A model generated the notes under the pieces. The model saw only the letters and a program-made list of their open reading frames with translations, did no database searches and had not been told where the DNA came from. 64,000 nt of DNA from Cyanophora paradoxa CCMP329 (lineage: Eukaryota > Plantae > Glaucophyta): assembly GCA_004431415.1 (NCBI GenBank), contig QPMI01000542.1, positions 484,373 through 548,372 on the forward strand, read 5' to 3'. Shown here piece after piece: positions 6,205 to 31,700 of this stretch. Numbering within the stretch: the first letter of the stretch is position 1; each line of letters begins with the position of its first letter. The position numbers and the translations under genes are program-made.

Positions 6205-9200
6205 ATGGGCTGCGGGGCGTCAGCACCTGAACCGACTACAGCTCGTTCTCTGAACCCTACAGCATCTGCGGCACCTGCGCCCCCGCAGCCGGCATCTGCG
6301 GCACGTTCGCCCCCGCAGGCGGCATCTGCGGCACCTGCGCCCCCGCAGGCAGAATCTGCGGCACCTGCGCCCCCAGGCCCGCAGGCGGCATCTGCGGCAC
6401 CTGCGCCACCGCAGGCAGATCAAGAATCTGCGGCACCTGCGCCCCCGCAGGCAGAATCTGCGGCACCTGCAGCTGCGCCCCCGGGCCCGCAGGCGGCATC
6501 TGCGGCACCTGCGCCACCGCAGGCAGATCTAGAATCTGCGGCACCTGCGCCCCCGCAGGCAGAATCTGCGGCACCTGCGCCCCCGCAGTCAGAATCTGCG
6601 GCATCTGCGCCCCCGCAGCAGCAGGCATCAGCCACGGCGGCCGCGGCACCTGTAGCTGCAGCTGTACATGTCAGGCCAACAGCTTCAGCCACACATGCAT
6701 ATGCCGACGTCGCAGCTGCGCCGACGGCGTCGAACGCGACGTCCGCAGCGGAAGTTCCTCACCGGTACGACATCTTCATCTCGCACAAGCAGTCCTCTGG
6801 TGAAGATCTCGCCCGCATCTTCAAGACGACGGTGCGAGCAGGGCCTGCGCGGGCTAGCCAAGCGCTCGCTGCACAGAACTGACGGGGCCGCCGGCGTGCG
6901 CAGGCGGAGAAGGTGACGGGGGAGCTCGGCATCGAGCTGCGCATCTTCCTCGACCGCGACGACCTCAACGACATCCAGGACCTCAGCGCCAACATCCGCG
7001 CCTCCCGCAGCGTCCTCCTCCTCCTCACCAAGGGTCCGTTCCCCCCCCCCCCCCCCCCCCCCCCCCCTCGCGATCGATCCGCCGCTAAACGCTTGGGCTG
7101 CTCATCGTTAATCCTCCCTCTCATCGCGCCGCTTCATTCCGAGCCCGCCTCGTGCATGTGCTCAGTACGCTCGCGCCGTGCAGACGTGTTCCGCAGCAAG
7201 TTCGTGCTGCAGGAGCTGAAGGCGGCGGACGAGGCCGCCGTGAAGATAGTCACCGTCTGGAACCGCGAGGGCGCTAACGGCGTACCCGAGTTCCCCTTCG
7301 GTCTGCCCCCTCCCCCCCCCCCCTCTCTCCGCCCCGTCTTCCCCTCCCCTCCCCGAACGCGTCCCACCTGCCCCTCTTCCCTCCCTCCGAGCCCCCCCCC
7401 ACCCCCCCCCCCACCCCTCCCTCCTCACCTTTATCATGATTTCTTTTACCAATTTTTCGACCCTTGATCATGATCAATGTTTACCTGCACTTTCCTCTAC
7501 CGCCCCCCCCCCCGCCCCCCTTCCTTCGGGCGCTCTAGATCTCCTGTCCCCCTCCTTCCCACCATTCCCCCCATCCCCCCCCCGCCCCCCCCCCCCCCCC
7601 CCCCGTGCCCTTTCTCCTCCCACTCTTCCTCCTCCTGTAGATCTTGACCCTTGATTCTACGTATACGGCCTTTGACACCCATGACATTTATATGATTAGC
7701 CTTCCTTCGGCCCTGTTCTGACGCAGCGATCACGAGCGCAGCGGCGACGGTCGAACTGCCGCCCTCCACGGAGCTCGGCGCGGTGGGCCTCGACGAGGAG
7801 GCGGCGCGGGCGCTGCTCGGCCGCGTCCTCAAGGTCAAGGCCGAGACGTACTACCGCGACGGAGAGCACCACCGCATCTGCATCGAGGAGGCCCTCGAGC
7901 GCTGCGGCGTCGAAGTGCGCAGCGCCGCCGCCGCCGGCTCCGGGCCCGTCCACACCGCCGTCCGCAAGGTCCGCTCCCAAGTCGTGCAGGGCGCGCGGCA
8001 TTTCTCAGGATCCTCGCCCTTAATCCGCTCGCGATCGCGATCGCGCAGTACGCAAAGGCGGAGGTGGGGAACACGGAAGCGACGGAGGCGCTGGCGCTGT
8101 ACGTGCACCCGAAGGCGACGACGGACGCCGCCCGCCGCAACGTCGTCGACCTCGCCGGCCACGTTGTCGCCTTCCTCCGCCGCCACATGCCCGTGCCAGA
8201 GGGGTCCGCGGCCAGCCGCACGGCCGCGCCAGCTGCCCCCGCCGCCGCCGGTGGCGCCCGCGTGCTGCTCATCGCGGGCGAGCCCGGCTCCAGCAAGTCG
8301 ACCTTCCTCGCGCACCTGCATCGCCGCGCCTGCGAGCAGTGGGCCGGGGCGGACGGCCGCCCGCCCGCCGGCGACGACCGGCTGCCGGTCACGTGCCTCT
8401 TGCGCCTCTCGAACCTCACGCGGGAGCGGGCGGCGAGCGGGCTGCGGGCGGAGGTGGCCGACGCCCTCAGCTTGCCCGAGGCCGACCTCCCTGCCCTGCG
8501 CGAGAGGCGTGCCGCTGCCCGCCACCGCCGCCCCGCCCACCATTCCTCACTGCCCCCCCTCGTGCACAGCCGCGGGCTGGTGCTTCTGCTGGACGCGTAC
8601 GACGAGCTGGAGACGGGGGCCGGCCGCCCGCCGGCCCTCTGGAGCCGCAACGAGCTCGGCAAGTGGGCCTCCGCCGTCGTCGTCACGTGCCGCTCGGCGT
8701 ACCTCGCCGCCCAGCCCGACTACCCCGTGCGCCGCTCCTCGCGATCGGCCCTCCGCAGCCTCGCCCGCCCGCCCCGGTGCGCCCTGCGACCGCCCCGCAG
8801 TCGCTGTTCGCGCCGGCTGGCGATCGCGGCGCGCTTGAGGAGGTCTGCACCCACCCCTTCGATGCCGGACAGGTGCCCGCCCTTCCGACAGCGGCTGTTC
8901 AGGCCCCGTGCTGACCGCCGCGGGCCGTCCTTCAGGTGGAGGACTACATTCGCAAGTACACCGGCCTGTACGGGCCAAGTGCCCCCGAAGGGTTGCGGGA
9001 CCGGGACTGCACGTGGACGGCGGAGGAGTACGCGGCGCGCATTGCCCAGGTCCCCGGCACCGCGACGCTCATCGAGAACCCCTTCACGCTCACGTGCGTC
9101 CGATCCGATTATTTGTGCCGACTCGCGTCTGATAATTGCAATTGCCGTCGCCTCGGGCGCGCAGAATGGTCGTGAAATCGCTGCCGAAGATACTGAAGAG

Positions 9201-12200
9201 CCGGTGAGCCCCGCTTTTCGCGCGTCAACGCGCCAGTTGTCGATGTCTCACTTTTACATTCCGCAGCGAGGCGGCTCACGATCATTTGGAGAAACCGACA
9301 GCCAAGGCCGCCGCAACGTACCTCCTGACGATTCGCGAGCTCTACCAGCAGTTCGTCGAGGCGCGCGGGGGCGCTGCGCATGCCGCCCCGTTGCAATTGG
9401 TTATGGGCCGCTAGGCGATTGGTGGCTGACTGCGTTCGCGGGCAGCTGTGGTTCACGCGGCAGTGGGAGAAGTCGACGTTGACGGCAGCGGGGGCGGCCA
9501 AGGAGCTCGAGACGGGTACGGGCTGATGTGTCTTTTCCAAGACCCATGAACAGCTGTAGTCTGCACGATCGCACTTTCATGATCCCCAAATCACCTTTCA
9601 CCAATCGCTATATATTTCAAGCAATGATATCTTTGATCTCGTGATCTGATGCTTATAGTTATACGTAACGCTGTCGCCAGGCGACCTGAAGGATTGGACG
9701 CTGAGCGACTTCCAGGAGAATACCCGCGGATACTGCAAATTGCTGGCCGACGCCATGTTTCGAGTGAGGCTTCCGCCCTCTAGATCTGCAGCGTTCGCCG
9801 CTGACGCCAGGGACTGTGCAGGCGGCCATCTCCGAAGTGCTCTGCCCTCCGAAGAAGGCGAAGGTCGCTCAGTTCCTTCTTCGCGGCGCGAAGGCGGCGG
9901 ATGTGACGGCGACGGCGGCCGCGCCGGCCGAGGGCGCGCAGAGCGCCGACCTCAGGCTCTGCATCGAGCTCCTCACGGACACGTCGGACCCCGTCCTCGC
10001 CTTCTGCCGCGACAACTGCCCCCTGCGCGTCGCCCGGGCGGCCGACGGCGGCACGGCCGTCCGCTTCCTCCACAAGGCCCGCCCGCTTTACGGCGCCGTC
10101 CCTCGCCCTGACGTCTGCGACAGACGCTCCTGGAGTACTTTGTTGCAGAGGGGGCGTACGCCGACGGCGCCAACGCGTTCCGATCAGTGCGTGCAGCTCG
10201 CCACTCCCGCCAATTCACGACCCAAAAGTGTGCTTTCTCCGCTTTATAAAATTACAGGCGATTGAGAGCGAGGCGGCCCCGCAAGAGGAGCTCGCCCGGC
10301 TGCGCGTGAAGCTGCGGGCCCTGCGCCGCGTGCAGAGCATCGCCGACGGCAGCGCCGCCGTCACGCGGGCGGACCCCAGCCTCCTCCACCTGCGGTGAAG
10401 CATTCACACGTTTCGCGTTCCTGCCTGGCATTCACACGTGTTGGCGTTGCTTGGACCAGGTTGCTGACAAAGGAGCCGAAGATCCTCCAGTTCCTCGCTG
10501 ACTGCTGTACGGCTGACGTCGACTACCGTAACGTGCGCTGCAGCTGTGCCTGAACACATTAATTGCTTGCCTCGAAATCGGAGTCCGGCGCAGAAACTGC
10601 TGGATCTGATGGAAAGGAGCCGCCACGATGACGCCACGCCGGGAGACATCATCGCCTCGGCCAACGCTATGACGATCCTGAACCGCGGTGCGGTCCACCT
10701 GCTCGCGATCGCGACGCTGTTGACACTGTGCGCACTGCGGCAGCTGGCTACAGCTTTGCGGGCAGCAGCCTCCGACGCGTGCGGGTGCCCGGGGCCGACC
10801 TGCAGCGGCTGGAGGCGGCGGGCGCGGACCTGCGCGGGGCGGACCTCACGGGCTGCAACCTTCTCGACGCGAACCTCGCCGGGGCGGACCTCCGCGGGGC
10901 CGTGCTCACCGACTGCAGCGTCACCCTCAACCCGGCGCTCTGGGGGCATGAAGATCGTGTGCGGGCTGTCGCCATAACTCGGGTGCGCTGCTCAGTAGAT
11001 GATGATGAGCGGGTGCCTGTGGCTGATTTTCGGCCACAGGACGGGAAGCGCGCCGTGTCGGGGGGCGACGACAAGACGCTGCGGGTGTGGGACCTGGAGA
11101 GCGGGGCGGAGCTGCGGTGCCTCGTGGGCCTCGAGTACATGGTCACCTCGGTGGCGATCTCGCCGGTGCACTGGGGGCGGGGCCAAAATTCCGGGCCAGA
11201 GGCCGATCGTGGGTGCCTCGGGGGCCTCTCGGCGGGCCGCAGGACGGGAAGCGCGCCGTGTTTGGGAGCTTGCACAGGAAGCTGCGGGTGTGGGACCTGG
11301 AGAGCGGGGCGGAGCCGCAGTGCCTCGACCACTGGGGCCACGAGGGCGTGGTCCGCTCGGTGGCAATCTCGCCGGTGTGCTGGGGAGCGGGCCAGGGCTC
11401 GGGGCCCGAGGCTGATCGCGGGGGCCTCGGGGGCCTCTCGGCGGGCCGCAGGACGGGAAGCGCGCCGTGTCGGGGAGCGACGACAAGACGCTGCGGGTGT
11501 GGGACCTGGAGAGCGGGGCGGAGCTGCGGTGCCTCGCGGGCCACAAGAGTGAGGTCACCTCGGTGGCGATCTCGCCGGTGCGCGGGCGGCGGGCCGGGGT
11601 CGGGCCCTGAGGCTTACCATGGGGCCTCGGGGGTCTCTCGGCGGGCTGCAGGACGGGAAGCGTGCCGTGTCGGGGAGCAGCGACAAGACGCTGCGGGTGT
11701 GGGACCTGGAGAGCGGGGTGGAGCTGCGGCGCCTCGCGGGCCACGAGAACATGGTCACCTCGGTGGCGATCTCTCCGGTGCGTGGGGGGCGGGCCTGGGC
11801 TCGGGGTCTGAGGCTGATCGGAGGGGCCTCGGGGGCCTCTCGGGGGGCCGCAGGACGGGAAGCGCGCCGTGTCGGGGAGCTGGGACAAGACGCTGCGGGT
11901 GTGGGACCTGGAGAGCGGGGTGGAGCTGCGGCGCCTCGCGGGCCACGAGGGCGCGGGCATGATCACCTCCGTGGCGATCTCGCCGGTGCACAGGCCCTGA
12001 GGGGGCGGGGCCGGGGCTCGAAGCCCGACGCTGATCGCGGGGGCCTTGGGGCCCCCTGGGCGGGCCGCAGGACGGGAAGCGCGCCGTTTCGGGGAGTGGA
12101 GACGACACGCTGCGGATGTGGGACCTGGAGAGCGGGGCGGAGCTGCGATGCTTCGCGGGCCACGAGGGCGAGGTCTCATCGGTGGCGATCTCGCCGGTGC

Positions 12201-15032
12201 ACTGGGGGCGGGGCCGGGGCTCGGGGCCCGAGGCTGATTGCAGGTGCCTGGGGGCCTCTCGGCGGGCTGCAGGACGGGAAGCGTGCCGTGTCGGGGAGCA
12301 GCGACAAGACGCTGCGGATGTGGGACCTGGAGAGCGGGGCGGAGCTGCGGCGCCTCGAGGGCCACGAGGGCGCGGTCAACTCAGTGGCGATCTCGCGGGT
12401 GCTTAGAAGGCGGGCCGGAGCTCGGGTTCTAATCAAGAGTCTGATTGCAGGGGCCTCGCGATCGGGGGCCTCTTGGCGGGCCGCAGGACGGGAAGCGCGC
12501 CGTGTCGGGGGGCGACGACAAGACGCTGCGGGTGTGGGACCTGGAGAGCGGGGCGGAGCTGCGGCGCCTCGCGGGCCACGAGGGCGCGGTCAACTCAGTG
12601 GCAATCTCGCCGGTGTGTGGGGCGCAGGCTGGGGTTTGGGTCTGGGTCTGCGGCTGATAAATTGGGCCTCGGGGGCCTCTCGGGGGGCCGCAGGACGGGA
12701 AGCGCGCCGTGTCGGGGAGCTGGGACAAGACGCTGCGGGTGTGGGACCTGGAAAGCGGGGCGGAGCTGCGGCGCCTCGCTGGCCACGAAGGCGAGGTCAC
12801 CTCAGTAGCGATCTCACCAGTGCGCAGGGGGCAGGGGCGGGGCTGGGGGCCCGAGGCTAATTGCAGGGGCCTCGGGGGCCTCTTGGCGGGCTGTAGGATG
12901 GGCAGCGCGCCGTGTCGGGGAGCAAAGACAGGACGCTGCGGATGTGGGACCTGGAGAGCGGGGTGGAGCTGCGGCGCCTCGCGGGCAACGATTGGGCGGT
13001 CTCGTCGGTGGCGATCTCGCCGGTGCGCGGGGGCCGGGCTGGGGCTCGGGGTCTGAGGCTGATTGGGGGTGCCTTGTGGCCCCCTCGGTGGGTCGCAGGA
13101 CGGGAAGCGTGCCGTGTCGGGGAGCGAAGGCCACTATATGCGGGTGTGGGACCTGGAGAGCGGGGCGGAGCTGCATGCGCAGCAACTTCATAACTCTGAC
13201 TACACGGTCCTCTCGGTGGCAATCTCGCCGGTGCGTGGGGGTGGGCCGGGGCTGGGGGCCCGAGGCTGATCGCGGGTGGTTTGGGTGCCTCTCGGCGAGC
13301 TGCAGGACGGGAAGCGCGCCGTGTCGGGGAGCAACGACAAGACGCTGCGGGTGTGGGACCTGGAGAGCGGGGCGGAGCTGCGGCGCCTCGCGGGCAACGA
13401 TTGGGCGGTCTCGTCGGTGGCGATCTCGCCGGTGCGCGGGGGCCGGGCTGGGGCTCGGGGTCTGAGGCTGATTGTGGTTGCCTTGGGCCCCCCTGGGTGG
13501 GTCGCAGGACGGGAAGCGCGTTGTTTCGGGGAGCGGCGACCTGTTTGGCAAAGACAACACGCTGCGGATGTGGGACCTGGAGAGTGGGTTGGAGCTGAGG
13601 TGCTTCGGGGGCAACGAGGGCGCGGTCACTTCGGTGGCAATCGCACCTGTGCGCAGGGGGCGGGGCCGGGGCTTGGGGTCTGAGGCTGATCGCGGGGGCC
13701 TTGGGGGCTTCTCGGCGGGCCGCAGGACGGGAAGCGCACCGTGTCGGCGGGCAAAGACTGCACGCTGCGGGTGTGGGACCTGGAGAGCGGGGTGGAGCTG
13801 CGGCGCCTCGCGGGCCACGAGGGCGCGGTCCGGTCTGTGGCGATCTTGCCGGTGCACAGGCCCTGCGGGGTCGGGGCCGGGGCTCGGGGCCCGAGGCTGA
13901 TCGAAGGGGCCTCTCGGCGGGCCGCAGGACGGAAAGCGCGCCGTTTCGGGGAGTGAAGACCACAAGCTACGGATGTGGGACCTGGAGAGCGGGGCGAAGC
14001 TGCAGTGCTTTGTGGGCCACGATGGTGCGGTCACCGCGGTGGCGATCTCGCCGGTGCACTGAGGGCGGGGCCTGGGCTCGCGATTAGGGTTCGACGCTGA
14101 TCGCGGGGGCCTTGGGGGCCTCTGGGCGGGTTGCAGGATGGAAAGGTGGCCGTGTCGGGGAGCGAAGACAATACGCTGAGGTCATGGGACCTGGAGAGCG
14201 GGGCGGAGCTGCGGCACTTTGTGGGCCACGAGGGTGCGGTCCTCTTGGTGGAGATCTCGCCGGTGCGCCAGGACGGGCCGGGGCACGGGGCCAGAGGCTG
14301 ATTGCGGTTGTCTCGGGGGCTCTCGGCGGGCCGCAGGATGGGAAGCACGCCGTGTCGGGGAGCGACGACATGACGGCGCGGATGTGGGACCTGGAGAGCG
14401 GGGCGGAGCTGCGGCGTGCAATCTTTGCGGGGGAAAAGGACATGGTCGATCGCGACCCAGTGCACGTGGTGGTCTCGCCGGTGCACATGGGGCGGGGCCG
14501 GTGCTCGGGGCCCGAGACTGATCGCGGGTGCCGTGGGGGCCTCTACTCGACCACCCTTCGTGCAGGGCGCGCTGGACGGGCGGGGCCTGATCGCTGTCGG
14601 TTGCCCCGACGGGACCATCGCCGTGTCGACTCTCCCCGTGCGCATATGCCACTTAGGCTCTGCCGGGCTGGCGAGGGCTAGCCGCTGCTATCCCTTTTTT
14701 TCGCCATTGCCTTACCGCCCGACCCCCCGGCCCGCCTCGCAGCGCGTGTTCTGCGCCATGCGCATCGGCACGAAGCGCGCGCAGGAGTTCCGCGGCTGCA
14801 AGGTGCGCGCGCGCCCCTCGGCTTCGATTTCCTATCGCAGGATGCGTATGCCCTCGTGACCGGGCACGGGCGGCAGTACGACGGGGCGACGGTCATGTCG
14901 GGGAAGCTCGCGCTGCTGCTGGAGCAGGAGGGCGGCGTGCGGCTCGAGGACGGCGAGGGCGGGGCCGGCGAGGGGGACGGGGAGGGGCCTGAGCCCGCCG
15001 TGCGCCTGTGGCTTCCAGTGAAGGACGAGTGA
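6205..15032 (+). CDS. NLR-like STAND protein 1: acylation motif - AP-rich repeats - TIR - NACHT-like NTPase - pentapeptide repeats - 17 WD40 exons
   Basis: MGCGAS start; TIR motifs YDIFISHK, IFLDRDDL, SKFVLQEL; Walker A-like GEPGSSKST (8277-8303); Walker B LVLLLDAYDEL; FLHK|TLLEYF; ASANAMTILNR; GADLRGADLTGCNL; GH..WD repeats; TGA 15030-15032. Confidence 0.88.
6260..6620 (+). repeat. Coding ~30-bp tandem repeat (ASAAPAPPQA)n
   Basis: ATCTGCGGCACCTGCGCCCCCGCAG is repeated about 10 times. Confidence 0.9.
11040..14480 (+). repeat. Array of 17 exon+intron cassettes (~200-220 bp), each encoding one WD40 repeat
   Basis: Exon starts (ag|GAYGG) at 11040, 11243, 11452, 11652, 11854, 12071, 12273, 12487, 12694, 12897, 13099, 13306, 13508, 13726, 13928, 14137, 14337; exons typically end ..SP|gt. 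Confidence 0.92.
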
Positions 15033-15405
15033 CCCCGGCGCTGCTCTTTGTTGGTCAGGAGGTCTGTACACGTCGCTTTAATCGTCGCCCGTTTCGTCCG
15101 ATCGTTGTGTCGACATCGTGCGATGATGTCTACAGATAATCTGTTGTTTTGGATTAAGAAGACATATGCATGCTTCTTGAAGCATTCGATTGCAAGGGGT
15201 CCCTAAACCACATGTGCACGTGCACTCTCTATTCCCCTCTGAGGAGCTCGTGAAGCCAGGGCCAGGGGCCGGCCCGGCCCTGCAGCTGTTCCCCTCTGCC
15301 AAGGGATCTAGATCTACTCACGGATCCGGAGCCCCCGCGGACGGCATGAAGTGTTTTCGATCGCGAATTCGTATATACACGCGGAGCTGCGGGGCGGGCC
15401 GGCGG

Positions 15406-18400: not shown

Positions 18401-18683
18401 CAGGCACAGCGCGTACACAGCGTTGATCGCCTGCGGGGCGGGCGGCGCGGCCCGTCAGCTCGCTTGCAAGAGAGCCAGGAGCGGGCGGGCGGGCGGGGCG
18501 GGCGGGCCTGCTCGGCGGCGGGGAACCAGCTGGCGTCGCTGAGGCCCTCGCCCTCGATGATGCGCGCGAGCTTGCGGAAGATGGCGTGCCCGGGCCTCAG
18601 CTTCGCCTCCAGCGCCCGCTTCAGGTCTTCGGGCCGCCCGGTTAGAGCGGGCAGGCGCCGGGGCGGGCCGCGGGGCGCGGGGC
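15406..18683 (-). pseudogene. 5'-truncated duplicate of condensin I subunit CAP-D2 (C-terminal Cnd1 HEAT half)
   Basis: Exons nearly identical to 28722-32000 (VRSNIVISLGDIAFRFPN, VRKNTLMVLSHLVLNDMVK, YNILPDVISRLS); no N-terminal exons upstream. Confidence 0.75.
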
Positions 18684-19260
18684 GTACGCGTACGCGTGGG
18701 GCGCATGCGCACCGGCCGCGGGGCCGGGGGCCGCGGGGCGTGGGCGCACCGGGCGCCGCCGCCGCCGCCGCCGGAACGGGCGCCGGCGCCTCGGCATCGC
18801 TCCCCGCCTCAGCCGCCTCCTCCGGCGCCAGCGCGGGCGCCTCGGCGTCGGCGCCTCGCGATCGGCGTCGGCCGCGGCCGTGCGGCCATCGCACCTACAA
18901 TCCCCCGCAGCTATCGCTGTGATTCGGATCAGCCTGCTGCGATGCCGCGCTGCGCTATTCTCCACCCAGCGACGCCTGTGGGAGAGGCTAGCGGCATATA
19001 GCTAGTCGATAATGCATAACTACGCTCGCCGCTTGTCTTCACGACGCTAGCTTAGGAGTGGTCGCAGCAGGTCGCAGCCTGGCAGCCCAGGTCGCAGCTT
19101 GGTCGCACCGTCGCAGCCAGGTCGCTGAGGTTCCGGGTACAGCAATCTAGAAGCCACATTTTGGGGTGGCCTATCCGGGACGCTCCGGATTGTTGGGAGC
19201 AGAGCAGCTCGCAAGTCTGTTCGGCGGTTCTGACTCCGCCCCTGCTCCAGCTGCAGCGCG

Positions 19261-22200
19261 ATGGGCTGCGGGGCTTCCTCGCCCACGCCTTCGAACGCAT
19301 CGTCGGCTCCAGCTGCTGTAATCGGCACGGGCGCAGCGCCTCGTGTGGCCCCAGCTTCGCCTGAGGTCGAAGTCCGAACTTCCCCTGGCCATGGCGGGCC
19401 TGGCCCCGCTGGCAGTCCTCCCACGACCGTCAAAGCCACGCCGGTAATCCCAGTAGCGGTACCGGAGGCGCGCACGAAAACTCCGTTCAGCGACCATGCA
19501 CATGAAGCCTCGACTGCGACCGTGACCGGACTCGCGTGGGTGTGCGGGGCCGACGAGCTGAGGAAGCTGTCGGCGCTGGAGGACGCCACTTCGGTCGCGC
19601 AGCTCGCGGGCCTCTGCGGGCTCCTCCGCGAGGCGGCGGCGGCGCCCGCCGGGTCCGACGCGCCGCGGCTCGCCCTGGAGCTCCCCGTCGTCCAGAGGCA
19701 GTTCGGGGGCGACGTGAGCAAGGCGCTGGAGGCCGCGAGGGAAGCGTGCCGCGCAGGTCCGCGCCGCCCGGCCCCGGCGGCCTCCCGCCCGCGCGCCCGC
19801 GGCTCAGGCGGGCCGCCCCGCGCGCGCAGCGCTGGAGCTCTTCGCTGAGAAGGCGATCCCGTCGCCGGCGGAGCTCGCCGACGCGTGCGCGGTGGTCCTC
19901 TCGGGCGACGCCGAGCTCTCCCGCAGCGTTGCGCCCGCCCCGCGCCGCCCCGCCCCCGCCCTCCGCCCCGACGCCGCGCCGCAGCTGCTGGACGTGCTGC
20001 TGTCGCTGCGGCGGAGCACGGTGCTGGCGCGGGTGCCGCCGGCGCGCGTCGGGGCGCTGGTGGGCGTGCTCGGGCGGCTGCCGCGGGGCACGCTCACCTC
20101 CACCGACCGCGCCCGCCTCGTCGAGTTCTGCGCCGAGCAGGCCCGCCCGCCCCCGCCCCCGCCCCGGCGCACCCGGGGCCGGCGGCCGCGCCTGACACGG
20201 CGGGGCGCAGCTGAGGGGCGTCGAGGCGGCCTCGCCGGGGGACGTGGACGCGCTGGCGTCGCTGCGGCTCGTGCCGGCCGCCCTCGCCGCCGTCGAGGCC
20301 GCGGCAGCGGCGCCGGCTTCGACTCAGACGGTGCGCCGCCGCCCACCGGCCGCCCCCGCGCGCGCCCGCGTTGCGCCCGCCGAGCGCCGAGCGTCCGGCG
20401 GCAGAGGCGCCGGCGCTGAGCTACGAGGGGGCGGCCAAGGAGCTGGACGCGCTGCTGAGGAGCTTCGAGGGCTGCGGCTGGTGGCGCGCGGAGGCGGCGG
20501 CGAGCTTCGCGCGGCAGGCCCTCGCCGCCGCCAGCTCCGACTACGACCCGCTCCAGAACGCCCTCGGCCGCGCCAAGGCCCTCGGTGCGCGGCGCGGCGC
20601 GGGTCGGGCGGCGGGTGGCGCGGGCGGCTGACCACGGCGGGGGCGGGCAGGGCGGGTGGTTTACAAGCTGTACCGGGCGGGCAAGGTCGTCTTCGACGGC
20701 GTCTCCAGCTTCGGCGTCACGACCGCCATGGAGCTCGTCGCCGCCGCCAAGGTCCCTTCCCCGCGCGCCGGGCGCCGGCGCGCGCCCGACCGGGGCGGGC
20801 AGGAGGCGGCGGGCTCGGTGGACGGGGCGGGCGTGCTGGAGGACGTGCGCGAGTTCTGGGCCGACCTCCGCCAGCTCGTCGGCGCCGACGACCTCCAGGG
20901 CAAGAAGTGCTGGTGCCGCCCCGCCCCGCCCGCCCGCCCCGCCGGGGCGGCCGCACCGCGAAGCCGAGCGGCGGGGGCAGGTACCGGCGGGCGCGGCTGG
21001 TGGCGGCGCTGGCGGAGGGCGGGCACCTGGCGGAGCTCGAGGCGGAGCTGGAGGCCGGCGCCCTCGCCGAGGCCGCCGCCCGCCCCGAGGCCGCCGCCGC
21101 CCTCTGCGCCGCCCTCTTCGCCGTCCGCCCCCCGCCCCGCCCGCCCCGCCGGCCCGCGCGGCTCTGCCGACGGCGCCGCAGGTCGCCGAGGCGGACGGCG
21201 GCGCGGGGCGCTGGCGCGCGGGGCCGTCGAGTGGATGGAGCGGCTCGCGGCGGCGGCGGCGGAGGAGGAGCGCCGCGGGCTGCGGAGGGCGGCGGGCGTC
21301 CTCGGACGGTCGCCGGCGCCCTCGCGAACCTCGCGGCGCTGCGCGGCGGCAGCGAGGCGGGGCGGCGGCGGCGGCGGCGGCCCTGCAGCGGATGCGGGCG
21401 GGCGGCGGCGCGGCGGGGCGGGCGGCGGACGCCAGCGCCGAGAAGTACCTCGGCGTGCCGGCCGCGGTGCGCCGCCCGCGCTGCTAGCGCCGGCCTCGGC
21501 CTGAGCGCCGCGCAGGAGGAGGCGCGCCCCGCGCCGCGCTTCCCGAAGGCGCTGGGCGCGATCGCGGCCCCGCGCGGCTCGTCGGCCCTCGCGCGGGCGG
21601 CCTCGAGCGGCTCGCGCAGGACGGCCCGACCGGCCCCTCCGCGCCGCCGTCGCGAAGGCGCGGCCCGCACCCGGCCCCCCGCGCGAGCTTCCCGCCTCGC
21701 CCCTCACTCGCGGGCCTCGCGCAGTACGCCAAGACGGAGGTGGGGGACAAGGACGCGGCGCAGGCGCTGGCGCTGTACGTGCACCCGAAGGCGACGACGG
21801 ACGCCGCGCGCCGCAACGTCGTCGACCTCGCCGGCCACGTCGCCGCCTTCCTCCGCCGCCACCTGCCCGCCCGGGGCGGAGCAGAGTCTGCGGGCGCTGC
21901 CCCTGCCGCGCTCGCCGCCGCCGGCGCCCGCGTGCTCCTCATCGCAGGCGAGCCCGGCTCCAGCAAGTCGACCTTCCTCGCCTTCCTGCACCGCCGCGCC
22001 TGCGAGCAGTGGGCCGGGGCGGACGGCCGCCCGCCCGCCGGCGACGACCGGCTGCCGGTCACGTGCCTGCTGCGCCTCTCGAACCTCACGCGGGAGCGGG
22101 CGGCGAGCGGGCTGCGGGCGGAGGCGGCCCGCGTCCTCGGCCTGCCTGAAGCCGACCTTTCCACCCTGCGGGACAGGTGCTGCCCACGCGCACGCGCGCC

Positions 22201-25200
22201 CCGCCCTTCGCCTTTCCCCCATCACGACCTTTGGCCAGCCGCGGGCTGGTACTGCTGCTGGACGCGTACGACGAACTGGAAACGGGGGCCGCCCGCCCGC
22301 CCGCCCTCTGGAGCGGCAACGAGCTCGGCAAGTGGGCCTCCGCCGTTGTCATCACGTGCCGCTCGGCGTACCTCGCCGCCCAGCCCGACTACCCCGTGCG
22401 CGTCCCCTCGGGTCCCGGCAGTCTAGCCCGCCCCGCCGCGCCCTGCGACCGCCCCGCAGTCGCTGTTCGCGCTGGGGGGCGATCGCGGCGCGCTCGAGGA
22501 GATCTGCACCCACCCCTTCGATGCCGGACAGGTGCCCGCCCTTCCAACAGCGGCTGCTCCGGCCCCGTGCTGACCGCCGCCGGCCGTCCTGCAGGTGAAG
22601 GACTACATTCACAAGTACATCGGCCTGTACGGCCCAAGTGCCGCCGAAGGGTTGCGGGACCCGGACTGCACGTGGACCGTGGAGGAGTACGCGGCGCGTA
22701 TCGCGCAGGTCCCTGGCACCGCGACGCTCATCGAGAACCCCTTCACGCTCACGTGCGTCCGATCCGATGATCCATGCTAGCTCGCGCCTGATGATTGCCG
22801 TCGCCTGGGGCGTGCAGTATGGTCGTGAAATCGCTGCCGAAGATCCTGAAGAGCCGGTGAGCCCCTCTAGATCTCTCCGCACGTCAACGCGCCAGTTGTC
22901 TCACTTCAGCATTCCGCAGCGAGGCGGCCCACTCAGAGAACCCGCCGGCCAAGGCCGCCGCAACGTACCTCCTGACGATCCGCGAGCTCTACCAGCAGTT
23001 CGTCGAGGTGCGCCGGGGCGCTGCCGCCCCGTTGGTCATGGGCCGCCGGCCGAATGGCGGCTGACGGCGTTCGTGGGCAGCTGTGGTTCAAGCGGCAGTG
23101 GGAGGAGAAGTTGACATTGAAGGAGACGGGTACGGTTGATGGCACCTTTTCGTAGTCTGCCCGATTGCACCAAATAATTATGATAGAAATGACCATGACG
23201 CCCCGTTTCCAACTTTCACTGATCGAATTCGAAATCTTAAACAATTATTTCTTTGATTTCGTGCTCTGATGCGTACACGTAACGCCGTCGCCAGGCGACA
23301 TGAAGGACTGGACGCTGAGCGATTTCCAGGAGTACTCCCGCGGGTACTGCAAGGACCTCGCCGACGCCATGTTCCGAGTGCGGGCCTCCCGCCCTCTGCA
23401 GCGCTCGCCGCTGATGCCAGGGGCTGTGCCACGATGCAGGCAGCCGTCTCCGAAGTGCTCTGCCCGCCGAAGAAGGCGAAGGGCGCGCAGTACGTTCCTC
23501 GCGGTGCGAAGGCGGCGGATGCGACGGCGGCCGCGCCGGCGGAGGGCGCGCAGGGCGCCGATCGCGACCTCAGGCTCTGCATCGAGCTCCTCACGGACAC
23601 GTCGGACCCCGTCCTCGCCTTCTGCCGCGACAACTGCCCGCTGCGCGTCGCCCGGGCAGCCGACGGTGGCACGGCCGTCCGCTTCCTCCACAAGGCCCGC
23701 CCGCCCCGTGGCGCCATCCCTCGCCCTGACGTCTGCGACAGACGCTCCTGGAGTACTTTGTCGCAGAAGGGGCGTACGCCGAAGGCGCCAACGCGTTCCG
23801 ATCGGTGCGCACGAATCGCCACTCCCGCCAGTGCGTGGCTCGAATGTGCACCCTCGCCGCTTCTCAGGCAATCGAGGGCGAGGCGGCCCCGCAAGAGGAG
23901 CGCGCCCGGCCGCAGGCGAAGCTGCAGGCCCTCCGCCGGGTGCAGTCCATCGCCGACGGCAGCGCCGCCGTCGTGCGGGCGAACCCCAGCCTCCTCCACC
24001 TGCGGTGCGCATGCGAAGTCGACGTCCCCTCACTCCTGTCCTCGCTCCGCTCAGAACTCGTTTTAAAATTTTCCCTGCCAGATTGCTGACGAAGGAGCCG
24101 AAGATCCTCCAGTTCATCGCCGACTGCTGCACCACCGACATCGACTACCGCAACGTGCGCTGCGCCGCTGCAGCTGCGGCTGAGCACATCGCTTGCCTTG
24201 AAATCGGACACCTGCGCAGAATCTGCTGGAGCTGATCGAGAGGAGCCGCCGCGAAGACGCCACGCCGGGAGACATCACCGCCTCGGCCAACGCCATGACG
24301 ATCCTGAACCGCGGTGAAGTCTGCCTGCTTGCGATCGCGACGCAATTGACACTGCCCGCAGCCGGTTACAGCTTTGCAGGCAGCAGCCTTCGACGCGTGC
24401 GGGTGCCTGGGGCAGACCTGCAGCGGCTGGAAGCGGTGGAGGCGGACCTGCGCGGGGCGGACCTCACGGGCTGCAGCCTCCTCGACGCGAATCTCGCCAG
24501 GGCGGACCTCCGCGGGGCAGTGCTCACCGACTGCAGCGTCACCCTCAACCCAGCGCTAAGAGGGCATGAAGGTTTTGTGAGGGCTGTTGCCATAACTCGG
24601 GTGCGCTGCTAAAACGATATCGATGAACGGCTCGGGCCCGAGGCTGATCGCGGGGGCCTCGGGGGCCTCTCGGCGGGCCGCAGGACGGGAAGCGCGCCGT
24701 GTCGGGGAGCGCCGACAAGACGCTGCGGGTGTGGGACCTGGAGAGCGGGGCGGAGCTGCGGCGCTTCGCGGGACACGAAATCGGGGTCACCTCCGTGGCG
24801 ATCTCGCCAGTGCGCAGGGGGCGGGACGGGGCTCGGGGTCTGAGGCTGATCGCGGGGGCCTCGGGGGCCCCGCGGCGGGCCGCAGGACGGGAAGCGCGCC
24901 GTGTCGGGGAGCGCCGACAAGACGCTGCGGGTGTGGGACCTGGAGAGCGGGGAGGAGCTGCGGCGCCTCGCGGGCCACGAGGGCCAAGTAAACTCGGTGG
25001 CAATCTCGCTGGTGCGCGGGGGGCGGGCCGGGGTTCGGGGTCTGAGGCTGATTTGGAGAGCCTCGGTGGCCTCTCGGCGGGCCGCAGGACGGGAAGCGCG
25101 CCGTGTCGGGGAGCGACGACAAGACACTCCGGGTGTGGGACCTGGAGAGCGGGGCGGAGCTGCGGCGCCTCGCGGGCCACGAGAAGGCAGTCCACTCAGT

Positions 25201-28200
25201 GGCGATCTTGCCGGTGCACGGGAGCGGGTCGATGCTGGCCATCGGGGGCTGAGGCTGATCATGAGCGCCTCGGGGCCCTCTTGGCGGGCCGCAGGACGGG
25301 AAGCGCGCCGTGTCGGGAGGCGCCGACCAGACGCTGCGGGTGTGGGACCTGGAGAGCGGGGCAGAGCTGCGGCGCCTCGCGGGCCACAATGACTCAGTCA
25401 CCTCGGTGGCGATCTCGCCGGTACACGGGGGGCGGGCTGGGGCTCGGGGTCGGAGGCTGATCGCGGGGCCTCCGGGGCCTCTCGCGATCGGCGGGCCGCA
25501 GGACGGGAAGCGCGCCGTGTCGGGGAGTTTCGACGAGACGCTGCGGGTGTGGGACCTGGAGAGCGGGGCGGAGCTGCGGCGCCTCGGAATCGCCGTCCAA
25601 GGTTACCTTGCAGCGGTCTGGTCGGTGGCTATTTCGCCAGTGCGTGGGGGGCGGGCCGAGGCTCGGGGCCGAACGCTGACGATCGGGACCTCGGGGGCCT
25701 CCCGGCGGGCTGCAGGACGGGAAGCTCGCCGTGTCAGGGAGCAACGACAACACGCTGCGGGTGTGGGACCTTGAGAGCGGGGCGGAGCTGCGGCGCCTCC
25801 CGGGCCACGGGCGTTTGGTATTCTCAGTGGCGATCTCGCCGGTGGGCGAGGGGCGCGCAGGGGCTCGGGGTCGGAGGCTGATCATGGGGGCCTCCGGGGC
25901 CTCTCGCGATTGGCGGGCCGCAGGACGGGAAGCGCGCCGTGTCGGGGAGTTTCGACGAGACGCTGCGGGTGTGGGACCTGGAGAGCGGGGCGGAGCTGCG
26001 GCGCCTCGCGGGCCACGAGGCCGAAGTAAACTCGGTGGCAATCTCGCTGGTGCACGGGGGGCGGGCCGGGGCTCGGGGTCTGGGGCTGATCGCGGGGGCT
26101 TCGGGGGCCTCTCGCGATCGGCGGGCCGCAGGACGGGAAGCGCGCCGTGTCGGGGAGCGGTGACAACACTCTGCGGGTGTGGGACCTGGAGAGCGGGGCG
26201 GAGCTGCGGCGCCTCGCGGGCCACGAAAGTGGGGTCACCTCGGTGGCGATCTCGCCGGTGCGCGGGGGGCGGGCTGGGTCTGGGGGTCTCAGGCTGATCG
26301 CGTGGGCCTCCGGGCCTCTCGGCGGGCCGCAGGACGGGAAGCGCGCGGTGTCGGGGAGCGAAGACAACACGCTGCGGGTGTGGGACCTGGAGAGCGGGGC
26401 GGAGCTGCGGCGCCTCGCCGGCCACGATGGCTGGGTCACCTCGGTGGCAATCTCAGCCGTGCGTGGGGAGAGGGCTGGGGCTTGGGGTCTGACGTTGAGC
26501 ATGGGGGCCTCGGGGGCCCCTCGGCGGGCCGCAGGACGGGAAGCGTGCCGTATCAGGGAGCCACTACAAGACGCTGCGGGTGTGGGACCTGGAGAGCGGG
26601 ATGCGTACGAAGCTGCGGTGCCTAGGGGGCCACGAGGATCAGCTCACCTCGGTGGCAATCTCGCCGGTTTGCGGGAACCGCGCCTGGGCTTACGGTGTGA
26701 GGCTGATTGTGGGAGCCTTGGGGGCCTCTCGGCGGGCCGCAGGACGGGAAGCGCGCCGTGTCGGGGAGCAGGGACAGGACGATGCGGGTGTGGGACCTGG
26801 AGAGCGGGGTGGAGTTGCGGCACCTCAAAGGCCACAAATTCTGGGCCCAGTCGGTGGCGATCTCGCTGGTGCGCGGGGAGTGGGCCGAGGCTCGGAGTCT
26901 CAGGCTGATCGCGTGGGCCTCTGGGGTCTCTCGGCGGGCCGCAGGACGGGAAGCGCGCCGTGTCGGGAGGCGCCGACCAGACGCTGCGGGTGTGGGACCT
27001 GGAGGGCGGGGCGGAGTTGCGGTGCCTCGCGGGCCACAAGGAAACGGTCACATCGGTGGCGATTTCGCCGGTTTGCAGGGGCCGCGCCAGGGCTTCGGGC
27101 CTGAGGCTGATTTGGAGAGCCTCGGTGGCCTCTCGGCGGGCCGCAGGACGGGAAGTTCGCCGTGTCAGGGGGCGACGACAAGACGCTGCGGGTGTGGGAT
27201 CTGGAGAGTGGGGCGGAGTTGCGGTGCCTCGCGGGCCACGAGCACGAGGTCAAGTCGGTGGCAACTTCGCTGGTGCGCGGGGGGCGGGCCGGGGCTCGGG
27301 GTCTGAGGCTGATCGCCGGGGCCTCGGGGGCCTCTCGGCGGGCCGCAGGACGGGAAGCGCGCCGTGTCGGGGAGCCACGACAACATGCTGCGGGTGTGGG
27401 ACCTGTCGAGCGGGGCGGAGCTTGCGAGAACGGAGTTCCCTAGGCCAAGTACTTATGATCAAGTCGAATTCAAACTTGTCTTTTCAAAGGTAAGTTTCTT
27501 CGTTCACGCATATGCGCGGTTCACTCAATGTCTCGCTTTCTCACATCGAGCGTTTATAGGATGCAGCGGCGCTTCGCATCCACTCTCGAACAGGAGAGGG
27601 GGCGGCGTACGTGTGGCGCTGGCAGTCGGCAGTGCTGACCAGGGTGGACAAGGAGCAGGGGCTGCAATCCGAGGAGTCGGGTGGATCGGAGTGGGCAGAG
27701 AGAGAGAATGGAGATCGTGAACCCACGGCTTCTTCGATCGCAGTTGCCGAGGTGCCTCGTCTGAAGATATCGACGTGTTCTGGCTGTTCCCCTACTTAGA
27801 CTGCTCCTCGGGCAGGGCGCGCTGGGCGGGCGGGGCCTGATCGCCGTCGGTCGCCCCGACGGGACCATCACGGTGTCGACTCTCCCCGTGCACATGCACC
27901 CCTGCTATGCTGCCGCCTGCCCGCCTGCCCCCCCGCAGTGCCGCTGACCGCCCGCCTGCCCCCCCGGCCCGCAGCACGTGTTCTGTGCCAGGCGCATTGG
28001 CACGAATCGCGCACAGGAGTTCCGCGGCTGCAAGGTGCGCGTGCAACCCTCAGACTTACCCTCAGGACGCCCTCGTGACCACGCGCGGCGGCAGTACGAC
28101 GGGGCGACGGTGATGTCGGGGAAGCTCGCGCTGCTGCTGGAGCAGGAGGGCGGCGTGCGGCTCGAGGCGGGCGAGGGCGGGGCCGGCGAGGGGGGCGGGG

Positions 28201-28250
28201 AGGGGCCCGAGCCCGCCGTGCGCCTGTGGCTCCCAGTGAAGGACGAGTGA
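19261..28250 (+). CDS. NLR-like STAND protein 2: acylation motif - helical (ARM-like) domain - NACHT-like NTPase - pentapeptide repeats - 14 WD40 exons plus one divergent exon
   Basis: MGCGAS start; helical N-terminus with ASFARQAL..DPLQNALGR and KKCW|YRRARL; GEPGSSKST (21947-21973); LLLDAYDEL; pentapeptides; TGA 28248-28250. Confidence 0.87.
24684..27489 (+). repeat. Array of 14 single-WD40 exon+intron cassettes
   Basis: Exon starts at 24684, 24886, 25088, 25295, 25502, 25716, 25924, 26132, 26333, 26535, 26743, 26945, 27147, 27349. Confidence 0.92.
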
Positions 28251-28721
28251 CCGCAGCGTTGTTCCTTGTTGGTCATGAGGTCTGTATATGTACACGTCGC
28301 TTTTCTGTCGACGTCGCACGTTTCGTACGATCGTTGCGTCGGCATCGCGATCGTGCGATCGTTGTGCGCACGTGTACATGTTCGATGTCTGTCGGCGTCT
28401 GGCTTTCGAAGAAGCATGCGCGTGCGATTGCAAGTAGGCGGCCTGCACAAGTAGAGCGCCTATAACTAGCTATATATAGCAGATGCATGCTTTAATTTGA
28501 AGCCGAGCGCCTCTTGCAGTACTAGTAGTCGGCGGGCGCAGCTGGAATCACCCCACGCGTACACCATCTAGCTCCAAGAGCTCATGAGGCCAGGGCCAGG
28601 GGCCGGCCCGGCCCTGTTCCCCTCTGCCATGGGATATAGATCTACTCACGGATCCCCCGGGGGCGGCAAGAAGTTCCTTTGAATTCGTATATACACGCGG
28701 AGCTGCGGGGCGGGCCGGCGG

Positions 28722-31700
28722 CTAGTCGCAGTCGCTCGCCTCGTCCTCCGAGTCGGCGACCTTCGCCCGCCGCGCCGCCCCCGCCCTGCGCCCGCCCCTC
28801 AGCCTCCGCCCGGCCCGGTTGGAAGGGAGGGGGGGGCCCGCGCACCGCCCCCGGGCCTTGCCGGCGGCCGCGGGGCCCGCCGCCGCCGCCGCCGTGCGGT
28901 TCCGCGGCTTCAGCACCGGCGCCTCCTCCTGCTCCTCCTCCTCCTCGTCGCTCGCGGGCTTGGCCTTGGCCTTGCCCCGCGCCGCCGCCGCGCGCCGCCG
29001 CGGCGCCGGCGCCTCGTCGAGCTCCATCGCGTCGCCGCTCGCCTCCTCCTCGCCCGACGAGGGCGCCGCCGCCTTCTTCCGCCCGCCCCCGCGCCCCTTG
29101 CCCTTCGCCGCCGCCTTCGGCCCGCGGCCCTTTGCCGGCGTCTTCGAGACCTGCGGCGCGACGCCGAGTCGGGCGCGGCCGCAAGGGCTGGGCGGGCGGG
29201 TGGGCGCGGGGGCGGGGCGGGCCTTGCCGCGGGCCTTGGGCGCGGCGCCGGCGCCGTCGTCGTCGCTCGCCTCGTTCGCGTTGCTCGTCTTGCGGCCCGC
29301 GTTCTCCTTGTCCTCTGCGGCGGCGGCGGCACGGCCGGGCCGGCTCGGCCTGGGGCGGTGCGCCGGAGTGAGGGGGGGGCCGGGGCCGGGGTGCGCACCC
29401 TCGGCGTCGCTGCCGGCCCTGGCTGGCGCCTTCCGCCCACGACGGCCCTTCGTCGCGTTCGTCGCCTTCTCGACCGTCTGCGGGCGCCGGCGCCTCAGCC
29501 GAAAGCAGGCCGGCCGGGAGTCGAGCCCGGGCCGCGCGGACCTCGCGGTCCTCGACGCCCTGCTGGTGGGCGGCGTTCATCTTCGCCTCGAGCTCCTCCG
29601 CCGCCTGCTTCGTCTCCGCCTTCGTCGACCGCTTCGCCTGCGGAGGAGGCGGCGCCGAGCTGCGTCGGCCGGGCGCAGCGGGCGGCGGGGGCGGGGGTGG
29701 TGGGGGACCTTGGCGATGGTGCCGACGAAGCAGTCGTAGACGTCCTTGTCGCCCAGGGCCGGCGCGTAGAGCGGGAAGAGGTCGCCGAGCTTCTTCGCGC
29801 TCTTGTCGTTGCACGGGAGCTGCGGCCCCGCAGCACGCGCGTGAGGAGGGCGGAGGAAGGGCGGGGCGGGGCGGGGCGGGGCGGGGCGGGGCGGGGCGGG
29901 GCGGGGCGGGCCTGGGAGATGCAGAAGGCGATGTTGCGCCAGACGTGGGGCTCCTGCGTGCCGGGGAAGCGGTGGCAGAGCTTCTCGTGCAGCGACTCGA
30001 TCTGCCGCTCCAGCGTGACAAAGGGCAGCAGGACCTGCATCGGGGCGCGCTCAGCCGCGGCTCGGTCGGGGGAGGGAAAGGGAGAGGGGGGCGGGGGCGC
30101 CTTCATGACGGCCTGGAAGGAGGAGGCGGAGACGGCGGGGTCGACGGAGAGGCGCGAGATGACGTCCGGCAGGATGTTGTAGATCGGGTTGTTTGCTGCG
30201 CCGCCGCCCACCCGCCCGCTCGATGCCCGTCTGGTGCGGGCGGGCGGGGGGCGCGCGCACATTTCTTGGAGAGCTCCTGGAAGAAGAGGTGGGCGAGGTC
30301 CTTGATGCGCGGCTCGCCGTCCACCAGGCACAGCGCCATCTCCCCGATGTTCCCCTTGACCTGGAGAAGGAGGAGGAGGCTTCGGTGAGCTCGGAGAAGC
30401 TTAAAGTGGGCGGGGCGGGGCAGGGCGGGGAGGGCGGCGGGCGCGCGCCTTGACCATGTCGTTGAGGACGAGGTGGGAGAGGACCATGAGCGTGTTCTTG
30501 CGCACCGTCGTGTCCTCGTCGCGCAGCCGCGCGTACACGTGCTCCGTCCACGGATCCACCTGCGTCAGAGCGTCAGGCCTCGGCGCAGAACTTCGTTTTC
30601 TTGGACCAGGGGGGGGGGGGGGGCGGACCTGGTTGGGGAAGCGGAAGGCGATGTCGCCGAGGGAGATGACGATGTTCGAGCGGACGCCGGCCTCGGGCGC
30701 CGCCTTCAGCACCGAGAAGAGCAGCTGCAGGTGCGCCTCGCTGCGCGCGGCGCGGAGCGCGCTCAGGCGGCGCCGGGCGGGGCGGGCGGGCGGGGCGGGC
30801 GGGCGGGGATCGGATGGGCGGGGCGCACCAGAACTCGGAGCTGACGCACATGAGCTTGCAGAGGGCGAGCACCGCCGAGGCCTTCAGCGCCGGGTCCTGG
30901 GGGGCGGCCGCGTCAGTCAGAAGGGTCCGAGCAGGGGAGGGGAGAGGGGCCGGCGGGGCGGGGCGGGGCGCACCGAGTAGCGGCGTGGCTGCTCGCAGAC
31001 GCGGGCGACGAGGGGCCCGAAGGCGCCCAGGAGCGAGTCGCCCAGCAGCTGCCGCTCCGTCATCTCCCGCAGCGCCTCCTCCTCCGCGTCCGCCGCCGCC
31101 GCGCTGATCCCCAGCTCCTCGTCCAGGTCGTTGCCCGCCGCGCTCTTCCGCCCGCTCTTGCGCGGCTTCGCGCCGCCCTCGGCGCCCCCCTCCTCCGCGT
31201 CCTCCTCCTCCTCGCCCGCCTTCTTCTTGCCCTTCCTCTTCTCCTTCTCCTTCGCCGCCGCCGCGTCCTTCTCCTTGGCCGCCTTCAGCGCCGTCGCTGC
31301 GAGGCGGGGAGCGTCAGCCTCGGAATGAGATCTCAAGGAGAAGGAAAGGGGGCGCGCCCTTGTCGGCGGCCTCCTGCTGTGTGAGGAGCTCGATCTGGGC
31401 GCGGCGCCGCTTGATGAGCGCGGCGACCTCCTCCATGTAGACGACGTGCTTGAGCGCCACGTGCCCCACGACGAAGAAGAGCCGCGCAAGCTGCCCCGGC
31501 GTCGCCTCCCCGGGCGCCGCAGCCGCCGCCTCCGCCGGAGCCGGCGCCGGCGCCTCGGCGTCGGCCGCCATCGCGTCGCCGCCTTCGGCGCCGCCGCCGC
31601 TGCTGCTGCTGCTGCCGGAGCTCCCGCGGCCCGATGCGGCGTCCGAGCCGGAGGCGGATGACGAGGAGGAGGAGGAGCCGTCGCCGAAGACGCGGCGGGC

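What the first reader, a model, noticed from the sequence alone, without database searches (positions are those of the whole stretch)
24684..27489. WD40 cassettes are mosaics, showing recombination through the conserved exon core
In gene 2, exons 5 and 7 share the 5' half SGSFDET but differ in the 3' half. Exons 2 and 7 share the 3' half VNSVAISL. Exons 4 and 12 share SGGADQT. The introns before exons 3 and 13 share GATTTGGAGAGCCTCGGTGGCCTCTCGG. In gene 1, exons 10 and 12 share GNDWAVSS and the following intron start but have different 5' halves. The two arrays do not align one-to-one (17 vs 14). This suggests crossover or gene conversion within the invariant CTGCGGGTGTGGGACCTGGAGAGCGGGG core, reassorting the two hypervariable patches.
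Basis: seen in the sequence. Interest (0 to 1): 0.75.

Follow-up and report, generated by a model that had tools for sequence, protein, structure and literature searches.

The report
Reshuffled WD40 exon cassettes, NLR-like gene
Two neighbouring NLR-like genes of a GC-rich eukaryote carry each WD40 repeat on its own exon, and in one of them different repeats share short DNA patches in conflicting combinations, likely because recombination between repeats mixed two variable, predicted binding loops, a process already described for fungal self-recognition genes.

Summary
All five shared patches and the 17 vs 14 count are in the sequence. Each unit is a ~126-nt phase-0 exon (one WD40 repeat) plus a ~76-nt intron; RNA contigs splice exons 10-14 exactly. 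In gene 2, four tracts with 4-6 shared derived bases conflict three ways; 0 of 300 no-recombination simulations reached this, and a conflict persists wherever the unit boundary is drawn. So mosaicism holds for gene 2, and a third paralogue carries all four pairings of two 5' and two 3' patches. Gene 1 evidence is weak, PHI is mostly negative, and 17 vs 14 proves no turnover. The exon core is not a special site: boundaries also lie in introns, and positions cannot be resolved within invariant stretches. The genes are NACHT-like NTPase-pentapeptide-WD40 proteins whose variable codons sit at the four positions selected in Podospora hnwd genes, where shuffling of these codon pairs is published. 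New here: one exon per repeat with co-homogenised introns, in another lineage. The scan noted a similar cassette array before in a haptophyte (unreviewed). No read bridges the exon-7 junction. Immune function is inferred. New variant of a known kind; interest 0.45.

The parts
19261..28250 (+). Gene 2: N-terminal region without Pfam match, NACHT-like NTPase, pentapeptide repeats, 14 WD40 units, short C-terminal tail (public model P0011, 2009 aa)
   Evidence: P0011 maps exactly onto exons 19261-28247; domains
24684..27489 (+). Gene 2 WD40 array: 14 phase-0 exons (126-138 nt; the last runs on into the tail) and 13 introns of 75-82 nt
   Evidence: GT..AG splice joints of introns 10-13 in RNA contigs
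6205..15032 (+). Gene 1: repeat-rich N-terminus, TIR-like domain (weak), NACHT-like NTPase, pentapeptide, 17 WD40 units (public model P0003 starts later, at 6701)
11040..14480 (+). Gene 1 WD40 array, 17 exons
25490..25586 (+). 97-nt tract identical to 25912-26008 (intron 4 end + exon 5 5' part = intron 6 end + exon 7 5' part)
   Evidence: permutation global p 0.0017
26024..26053 (+). Exon 7 3' patch identical to exon 2 3' patch (24986-25015), 6 shared derived bases
26933..27004 (+). Exon 12 5' part identical to exon 4 5' part (25283-25354)
   Evidence: exon 12 whole in one spliced contig (X19 record 21)
27101..27155 (+). Intron 12 3' part identical to intron 2 3' part (25042-25096); left boundary inside the intron
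25474..25527 (+). Intron 4 end identical to intron 7 end (26104-26157), with a 6-nt insertion also in intron 6
   Evidence: contig at about twice the neighbouring depth in two DNA runs
12965..13065 (+). Gene 1 exon 10 3' part + intron start, identical to 13374-13474 (exon 12); fits sister duplicates as well as exchange
24601..24683 (+). Intron before gene 2 exon 1: 5' third like the same intron of gene 1, 3' two thirds array-type
14481..14565 (+). Last array intron of gene 1: 5' part array-type, 3' end like the intron before the matching downstream exon of gene 2
21725..22177 (+). First NTPase exon of gene 2 (P-loop GEPGSSKS); homology to gene 1 begins at its acceptor
24361..24600 (+). Pentapeptide-repeat exon ending in the first WD40 strand
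   Evidence: PF00805 E 1.3e-11

Best explanation
The array is the WD40 domain, likely a ligand sensor, of an NLR-like NTPase gene in which an exon-plus-intron unit was amplified in tandem and then likely reshuffled by unequal crossover or short gene conversion between misaligned units of the same gene. Shown: unit structure, splicing, shared patches in conflicting pairs, excess amino-acid change at four to five codons. Inferred: exchanges start in whichever long near-identical stretch pairs (exon core or intron-exon junction, also intron), so no dedicated core site is needed; because the core lies between the two variable patches, an exchange there gives a repeat a new pair of loops (b-c turn and d-a loop) on the propeller's top face; phase-0 introns keep every product in frame; diversifying selection keeps new combinations. 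The ligand and an immune or non-self role are inferred from likeness to fungal hnwd genes, untested.
For: Gene 2: 4 tracts with 4 or more shared derived bases and 3 conflicts; 0 of 300 tree-only simulations reached either count at each of three rate settings. With the unit boundary moved to 15 positions, a conflict remains in 15 of 15 at 3 shared bases and 13 of 15 at 4 (0 of 100 simulations each); the surviving conflict is exon 7 when the cut is in the intron and exon 2/intron 2 when it is in the core (read). Shared states include silent and intronic bases, so amino-acid convergence does not explain them. Paralogue P0004 has all four pairings of two 5' and two 3' patches (units 4, 6, 7, 10); 4 of 300 simulations gave such a cycle. 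Chimeric introns at both array ends. Codons 10, 12, 34, 36: pN 0.38 vs pS 0.11 overall (ratio 3.5, bootstrap 2.7-4.5; 1.8, 1.3-2.8, against pS of the same codons), other codons 0.43; 23 different four-residue combinations in 23 units. These flank a conserved D and V 18 codons apart, as the selected pairs 7/9 and 25/27 of Podospora do. Splicing and single-copy depth.
Against: PHI: 3 of 21 tests below p 0.05, none for gene 2 (p 0.07-0.87). Gene 1 has no conflict at 4 shared bases in 15 of 15 registers, and its 5' and 3' half distances correlate (rho 0.44, p 0.013). Only 1 of 5 other proteins tested shows a patch cycle, the windows were chosen after seeing the units, and P0004 has no conflict at 3 shared residues. 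The simulations hold no insertions or multi-base events; exon 5's 3' patch was rewritten with a 12-nt insertion, which weakens the exon 5/7/2 case unless the intron insertion shared by introns 4, 6, 7 is counted. The tract statistic was designed after seeing the data. NACHT scores 24.9 bits, under Pfam's 26.7 cut-off.
Confidence: 0.78

Rival explanations
1. Whole units were duplicated in one burst near the time the two genes split and then diverged alone; shared patches are sister duplicates plus repeated mutation at hypervariable sites.
For: Unit trees are star-like; neutral distance among units (pS 0.17, intron 0.21) equals that between the two genes' flanks (0.173, 0.185); PHI mostly negative; fits gene 1, including exons 10/12.
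Against: Gene 2 conflicts survive every unit boundary; six-base intronic and silent patches would have to arise twice; chimeric boundary introns; P0004's four pairings.
Confidence: 0.12
2. The exon core is a dedicated, possibly targeted recombination site that reassorts the two variable patches.
For: The core is the least variable 30-nt window; gene 1's weak conflicts vanish only when units are cut at nt 30-90 (5 of 15 registers); P0004's patches reassort across the core.
Against: Boundaries inside introns (introns 2/12, 24601-24683, 14481-14565); the acceptor junction matches as long as the core in gene 2; core markers in P0004 imply several different switch points; core conservation is expected from the WD40 fold.
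Confidence: 0.06
3. The mosaics are assembly or polishing errors that copied one unit's bases onto another.
For: No laid contig spans the array or bridges exon 7's two patches; only 31-mer-based contigs were available.
Against: DNA contigs match with 3 other letters in 4.1 kb and none in 0.8 kb; the intron 4/7 shared piece has about twice the depth of neighbours in two runs (162 vs 62-95; 145 vs 68); one spliced contig carries exons 11-13 whole without a difference; tract partners differ at 17-35 other sites.
Confidence: 0.04

Closest known systems
Podospora anserina hnwd/NWD genes (het-d, het-e, het-r): NACHT + WD40 with high internal conservation (PMC1805685, PMC2873952, PMC13449251)
   Same: 42-codon WD40 repeats over 80% alike; four hypervariable codons in two pairs around conserved V and D; chimeric repeats from 5'/3' fusion and short conversion.
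   Different: Here each repeat is its own exon with an intron homogenised along with it (fungal repeats are intronless, recalled); no HET domain; a pentapeptide region precedes the WD40s; no shared derived tract between the two genes, whereas hnwd repeats are exchanged between loci.
Ectocarpus ROCO-LRR and NB-ARC-TPR candidate receptors (PMC3341825; PMC11378527 listing only)
   Same: One repeat per exon, variable repeat number between recent duplicates, intragenic recombination, positively selected surface residues.
   Different: LRR/TPR, not WD40; spare exons in introns and on the opposite strand there, none here; introns here are short and part of the repeat unit.
Tetrahymena 90-bp-exon LRR genes (PMC6564038)
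   Same: Tandem exon/intron units of one phase, explained by unequal crossing over.
   Different: LRR, phase 2, thousands of genes, retrotransposon association; no NTPase module.
Mortierellaceae NACHT-pentapeptide-WD40 proteins (e.g. P0026, P0028)
   Same: Nearest outside homologues of the NTPase-pentapeptide region (E 1e-35, 26-28% identity), also with near-identical WD40 repeats varying at the same positions.
   Different: No patch cycle in the two tested; exon structure not examined; function unknown to me.

Membership tests
Fungal hnwd / HIC NACHT-WD40 NLR | NACHT NTPase domain | tested here: inconclusive
   PF05729 E 2e-5, 24.9 bits vs cut-off 26.7 on P0003 1-538; P-loop GEPGSSKS is atypical; homologous to Mortierella proteins annotated PF05729
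Fungal hnwd / HIC NACHT-WD40 NLR | N-terminal HET domain | tested here: not met
   Gene 1: TIR_2 E 0.007, under cut-off; gene 2: no Pfam match for 3 N-terminal exons scanned
Fungal hnwd / HIC NACHT-WD40 NLR | WD40 repeats 80-100% identical | tested here: met
   Mean exon DNA distance 0.16 within each gene; WD40 PF00400 x14 in P0011
Fungal hnwd / HIC NACHT-WD40 NLR | Four hypervariable codons in two pairs under diversifying selection | tested here: met
   Codons 10, 12, 34, 36 (plus 33) most variable; pN/pS above 1 by counting; no codon-model test run
Fungal hnwd / HIC NACHT-WD40 NLR | Chimeric repeats within a gene | tested here: met
   Gene 2; weak in gene 1
Fungal hnwd / HIC NACHT-WD40 NLR | Repeat exchange between loci | tested here: inconclusive
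   0 of 14 tracts between genes; within-gene distance 0.18 vs between 0.187, p 0.027; long between-gene matches are consensus-like
Fungal hnwd / HIC NACHT-WD40 NLR | Repeat-number polymorphism among isolates; cell death on non-self recognition | not testable with these tools
   No second strain, long reads or assay
Brown algal exon-shuffled receptors | One repeat per exon | tested here: met
Brown algal exon-shuffled receptors | LRR or TPR repeats with ROC-COR or NB-ARC | tested here: not met
   WD40 with NACHT-like NTPase
Brown algal exon-shuffled receptors | Spare intronic or opposite-strand exons; alternative splicing | tested here: inconclusive
   No minus-strand or intronic copies in the window; only consecutive GT..AG joints in 3 RNA-like runs, low cover of exons 1-9

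The most novel reading that the evidence does not exclude
This lineage (recalled as a glaucophyte alga) evolved, independently of fungi and brown algae, a combinatorial receptor repertoire in which exon-intron WD40 cassettes keep recombining during clonal growth, so that cell lines differ in their arrays, with raised silent change beside the variable codons (14 of 87 vs 28 of 436) marking local mutagenesis rather than hitch-hiking.
Probability: 0.12. Interest if true: 0.8.

Novelty: new variant of a known kind. Interest (0 to 1): 0.45.

Why it matters
It extends hnwd-type repeat shuffling, with the same four variable positions, to an intron-rich gene family in a distant eukaryote, and the co-homogenised introns give neutral markers for mapping exchange tracts that intronless fungal repeats lack. 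If the species guess is right, it offers candidate intracellular immune receptors in a lineage where my searches found none described. The mechanism itself is published for Podospora, so a specialist would find it a useful parallel, not a surprise.

Tried and rejected
No whole genome is held, so the DNA of P0004 and other paralogues was not seen. PHI: mostly negative. A GENECONV-like permutation is confounded by the conserved core; most gene 1 hits were consensus matches, so I relied on shared derived bases. Positional orthology between arrays: no offset stands out (0.176-0.197 vs 0.187 overall), but one search shows this is expected without turnover. Exon skipping: the joint 26408-27344 (X15) and DNA joint 25040-26980 (X1) have non-splice ends and 21-30 letters on one side; treated as repeat artefacts. 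No run is on record as RNA; splicing rests on GT..AG joints in runs guessed to be RNA. Uncovered bins (26803-26939 in X1; 26036-26075 at 99% likeness) are no evidence. The single-sequence fold of P0004 1016-1654 is low confidence (pLDDT 59, pTM 0.43): it shows four strands per unit with both patches in loops, not the propeller count; no fold search run. Gene 2's first exon shows no likeness to a Mortierella ARM protein. GCGATCGC-type palindromes are only mildly enriched (12 vs 5-10 expected). Look-ups of earlier findings by sequence and by genome gave nothing.
Full report
Observation. The window holds two tandem arrays of a ~202-nt unit: 17 units at 11040-14480 and 14 at 24684-27489, none on the minus strand. 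Each unit is a phase-0 exon of 126 nt (a few 132-144) coding one WD40 repeat in b-c-d-a order, and a GT..AG intron of 74-88 nt. RNA-like contigs join gene 2 exons 10-11-12-13-14 at these sites, one of them in a single 1002-nt record with no difference on the array exons. Statistics use 29 of 31 units (the two terminal units lack an array-type following intron) and the 202 columns with at most 20% gaps.

What the genes are. Public models P0003 (gene 1) and P0011 (gene 2) map exactly onto the window. Both have an NTPase (NACHT E 2e-5, just under the curated cut-off), pentapeptide repeats and the WD40 array. They are alike from the acceptor before the first NTPase exon onward but have unrelated N-terminal parts. 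The two searches returned 25 proteins of the same gene set, then Mortierellaceae NACHT-pentapeptide-WD40 proteins. The style of the names is one I recall for the glaucophyte Cyanophora paradoxa; this is recalled and untested.

Is it mosaic? Standard tests are weak: PHI is below 0.05 in 3 of 21 tests and never for gene 2; a permutation test of identical runs is confounded by the conserved core. I therefore counted tracts of uninterrupted identity that hold shared non-consensus bases, and pairs of tracts that tie one unit to two different partners, against simulations on the ML tree with fitted site rates and no recombination. This statistic was designed after seeing the data. Gene 2 has four tracts with 4-6 such bases (exons 5/7, 2/7, 4/12, introns 2/12) and three conflicts; 0 of 300 simulations reached either count at each of three rate settings. 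Because a plain duplication could cut the unit anywhere, I repeated this for 15 unit boundaries: gene 2 keeps a conflict in 15 of 15 at three shared bases (p 0.01-0.08) and 13 of 15 at four (0 of 100 simulations each). Gene 1 has one strong tract (exons 10/12), no conflict at four bases in any register, and conflicts at three bases that depend on the register (0 to 4). So gene 2 is mosaic; gene 1 is not shown to be. The null holds no indels or multi-base events, and exon 5's 3' patch carries a 12-nt insertion, so the exon 5/7/2 case also leans on a 6-nt intron insertion shared by introns 4, 6 and 7 but absent from intron 1.

Independent case. Paralogue P0004 shares gene 2's N-terminus (352 of 383 residues) and NTPase region (567 of 628) but not its variable residues. 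Its units 4, 6, 7 and 10 show all four pairings of two 5' and two 3' patches; 4 of 300 simulations gave such a cycle (12 of 14 units used; windows chosen after viewing). Four other proteins (P0009, P0017, P0026, P0028) gave none.

Where are the boundaries? Exon 7 switches partner somewhere between nt 35 and 100, which includes the core but cannot be narrowed. The intron 2/12 tract starts inside the intron. The intron before gene 2 exon 1 and the last array intron of gene 1 are each part array-type and part unique. Each unit offers two long perfect-match windows: the core (mean 28-29 nt) and the acceptor junction (18 nt in gene 1, 32 nt in gene 2). Ordinary homology-driven exchange explains this without a dedicated core site.

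17 versus 14. No positional orthology exists and none of 14 tracts is shared between genes, but neutral distance among units (pS 0.17, introns 0.21) equals that between the genes' flanks (0.173 and 0.185). The units may simply have been near-identical when the genes split. Unit gain or loss did occur; continual turnover is not shown by this comparison.

Artefact? Fourteen runs hold 63-75% of sampled words (they may be one campaign and may include the source sample). DNA contigs show 3 other letters over 4.1 kb and none over 0.8 kb. The piece shared by introns 4 and 7 has about twice the depth of its neighbours in both runs laid (rough). No contig bridges both patches of exon 7, so that junction rests on the assembly.

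Selection and structure. In 23 indel-free units, codons 10, 12, 33, 34 and 36 are the most variable. Four of them flank a conserved D and a conserved V 18 codons apart, the arrangement of the selected pairs 25/27 and 7/9 in Podospora, placed there in the b-c turn and d-a loop on the propeller's top (PMC1805685, passages); three match the general top-face hotspots R1, R1-2, D-1 (PMC3419727, passages; mapping by motif is mine). I had seen the variability table when I fixed these four. pN is 0.38 there against pS 0.11 overall and 0.21 at the same codons; other codons give 0.43. Silent changes next to the patches are also raised (14 of 87 vs 28 of 436, p 0.005; units not independent). A low-confidence model places both patches in loops between strands.

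Comparison. Chimeric WD40 repeats by 5'/3' fusion, short conversion, and shuffling of the two codon pairs are reported for Podospora hnwd genes (PMC2873952, passages and section 10). One repeat per exon with recombination is reported for Ectocarpus LRR/TPR receptors (PMC3341825, passages) and Tetrahymena LRR genes (PMC6564038, passages). NTPase proteins with near-identical repeats occur across life (PMC13449251, passages and section 12). Eight searches listed no paper on an exon-per-repeat NACHT-WD40 array or on this family in glaucophytes; PMC7145615 (passages) includes one glaucophyte without such detail; PMC8891106 and PMC11378527 were seen as listings only. No supplements were read, and most subscription papers are outside the library. 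The scan noted a similar exon-per-repeat NACHT-WD40 array in a haptophyte (e1-10419059, unreviewed); I did not test it.

Verdict. It works like an hnwd-type sensor domain but is not an hnwd member (no HET domain). The mosaic is real for gene 2, the core-specific claim is not supported, and the mechanism is known; the exon-intron packaging and lineage make it a new variant. Interest 0.45.

Noticed in passing
window 6205-8048 vs 19261-21724: The two genes have unrelated N-terminal domains (TIR-like vs no Pfam match) joined to the same NTPase exon at a phase-0 acceptor (8041/21717): an apparent effector-domain swap.
   Followed up: partly
window 6205 and 19261: Both genes start MGCGAS; 10 of 25 family models start MG with a cysteine in the first six residues, a likely lipid-anchor signal (motif recalled). 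The public model of gene 1 misses this start.
   Followed up: partly
window 15244-18684 vs 28578-32008 (minus strand): The 3' half of the neighbouring condensin subunit gene (Cnd1, E 2.8e-11) was duplicated with the receptor gene, 95% identical; the first copy lacks its 5' part.
   Followed up: partly
window 21725-22177: The P-loop reads GxPGSSKS, not GxxGxGKS, in 11 family models; nucleotide binding may differ.
   Followed up: no
window 25817/25841 and 13827/13851: Public models P0011 and P0003 each cut one WD40 exon short at an upstream GT; the full-length donor fits the unit pattern. No RNA cover to decide.
   Followed up: no
window 27349-27751 vs 14337-14565: Gene 1 lacks the C-terminal extension that gene 2 and P0004 share after the last repeat; its last array intron joins straight to the next exon.
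   Followed up: partly
P0017: Another family member repeats four 5' patches two or three times each with ten different 3' patches; its model spaces units 55-66 residues apart, perhaps retained introns.
   Followed up: partly
window 6260-6627: Proline/alanine-rich tandem repeat (30-nt period) in the first exon of gene 1.
   Followed up: no
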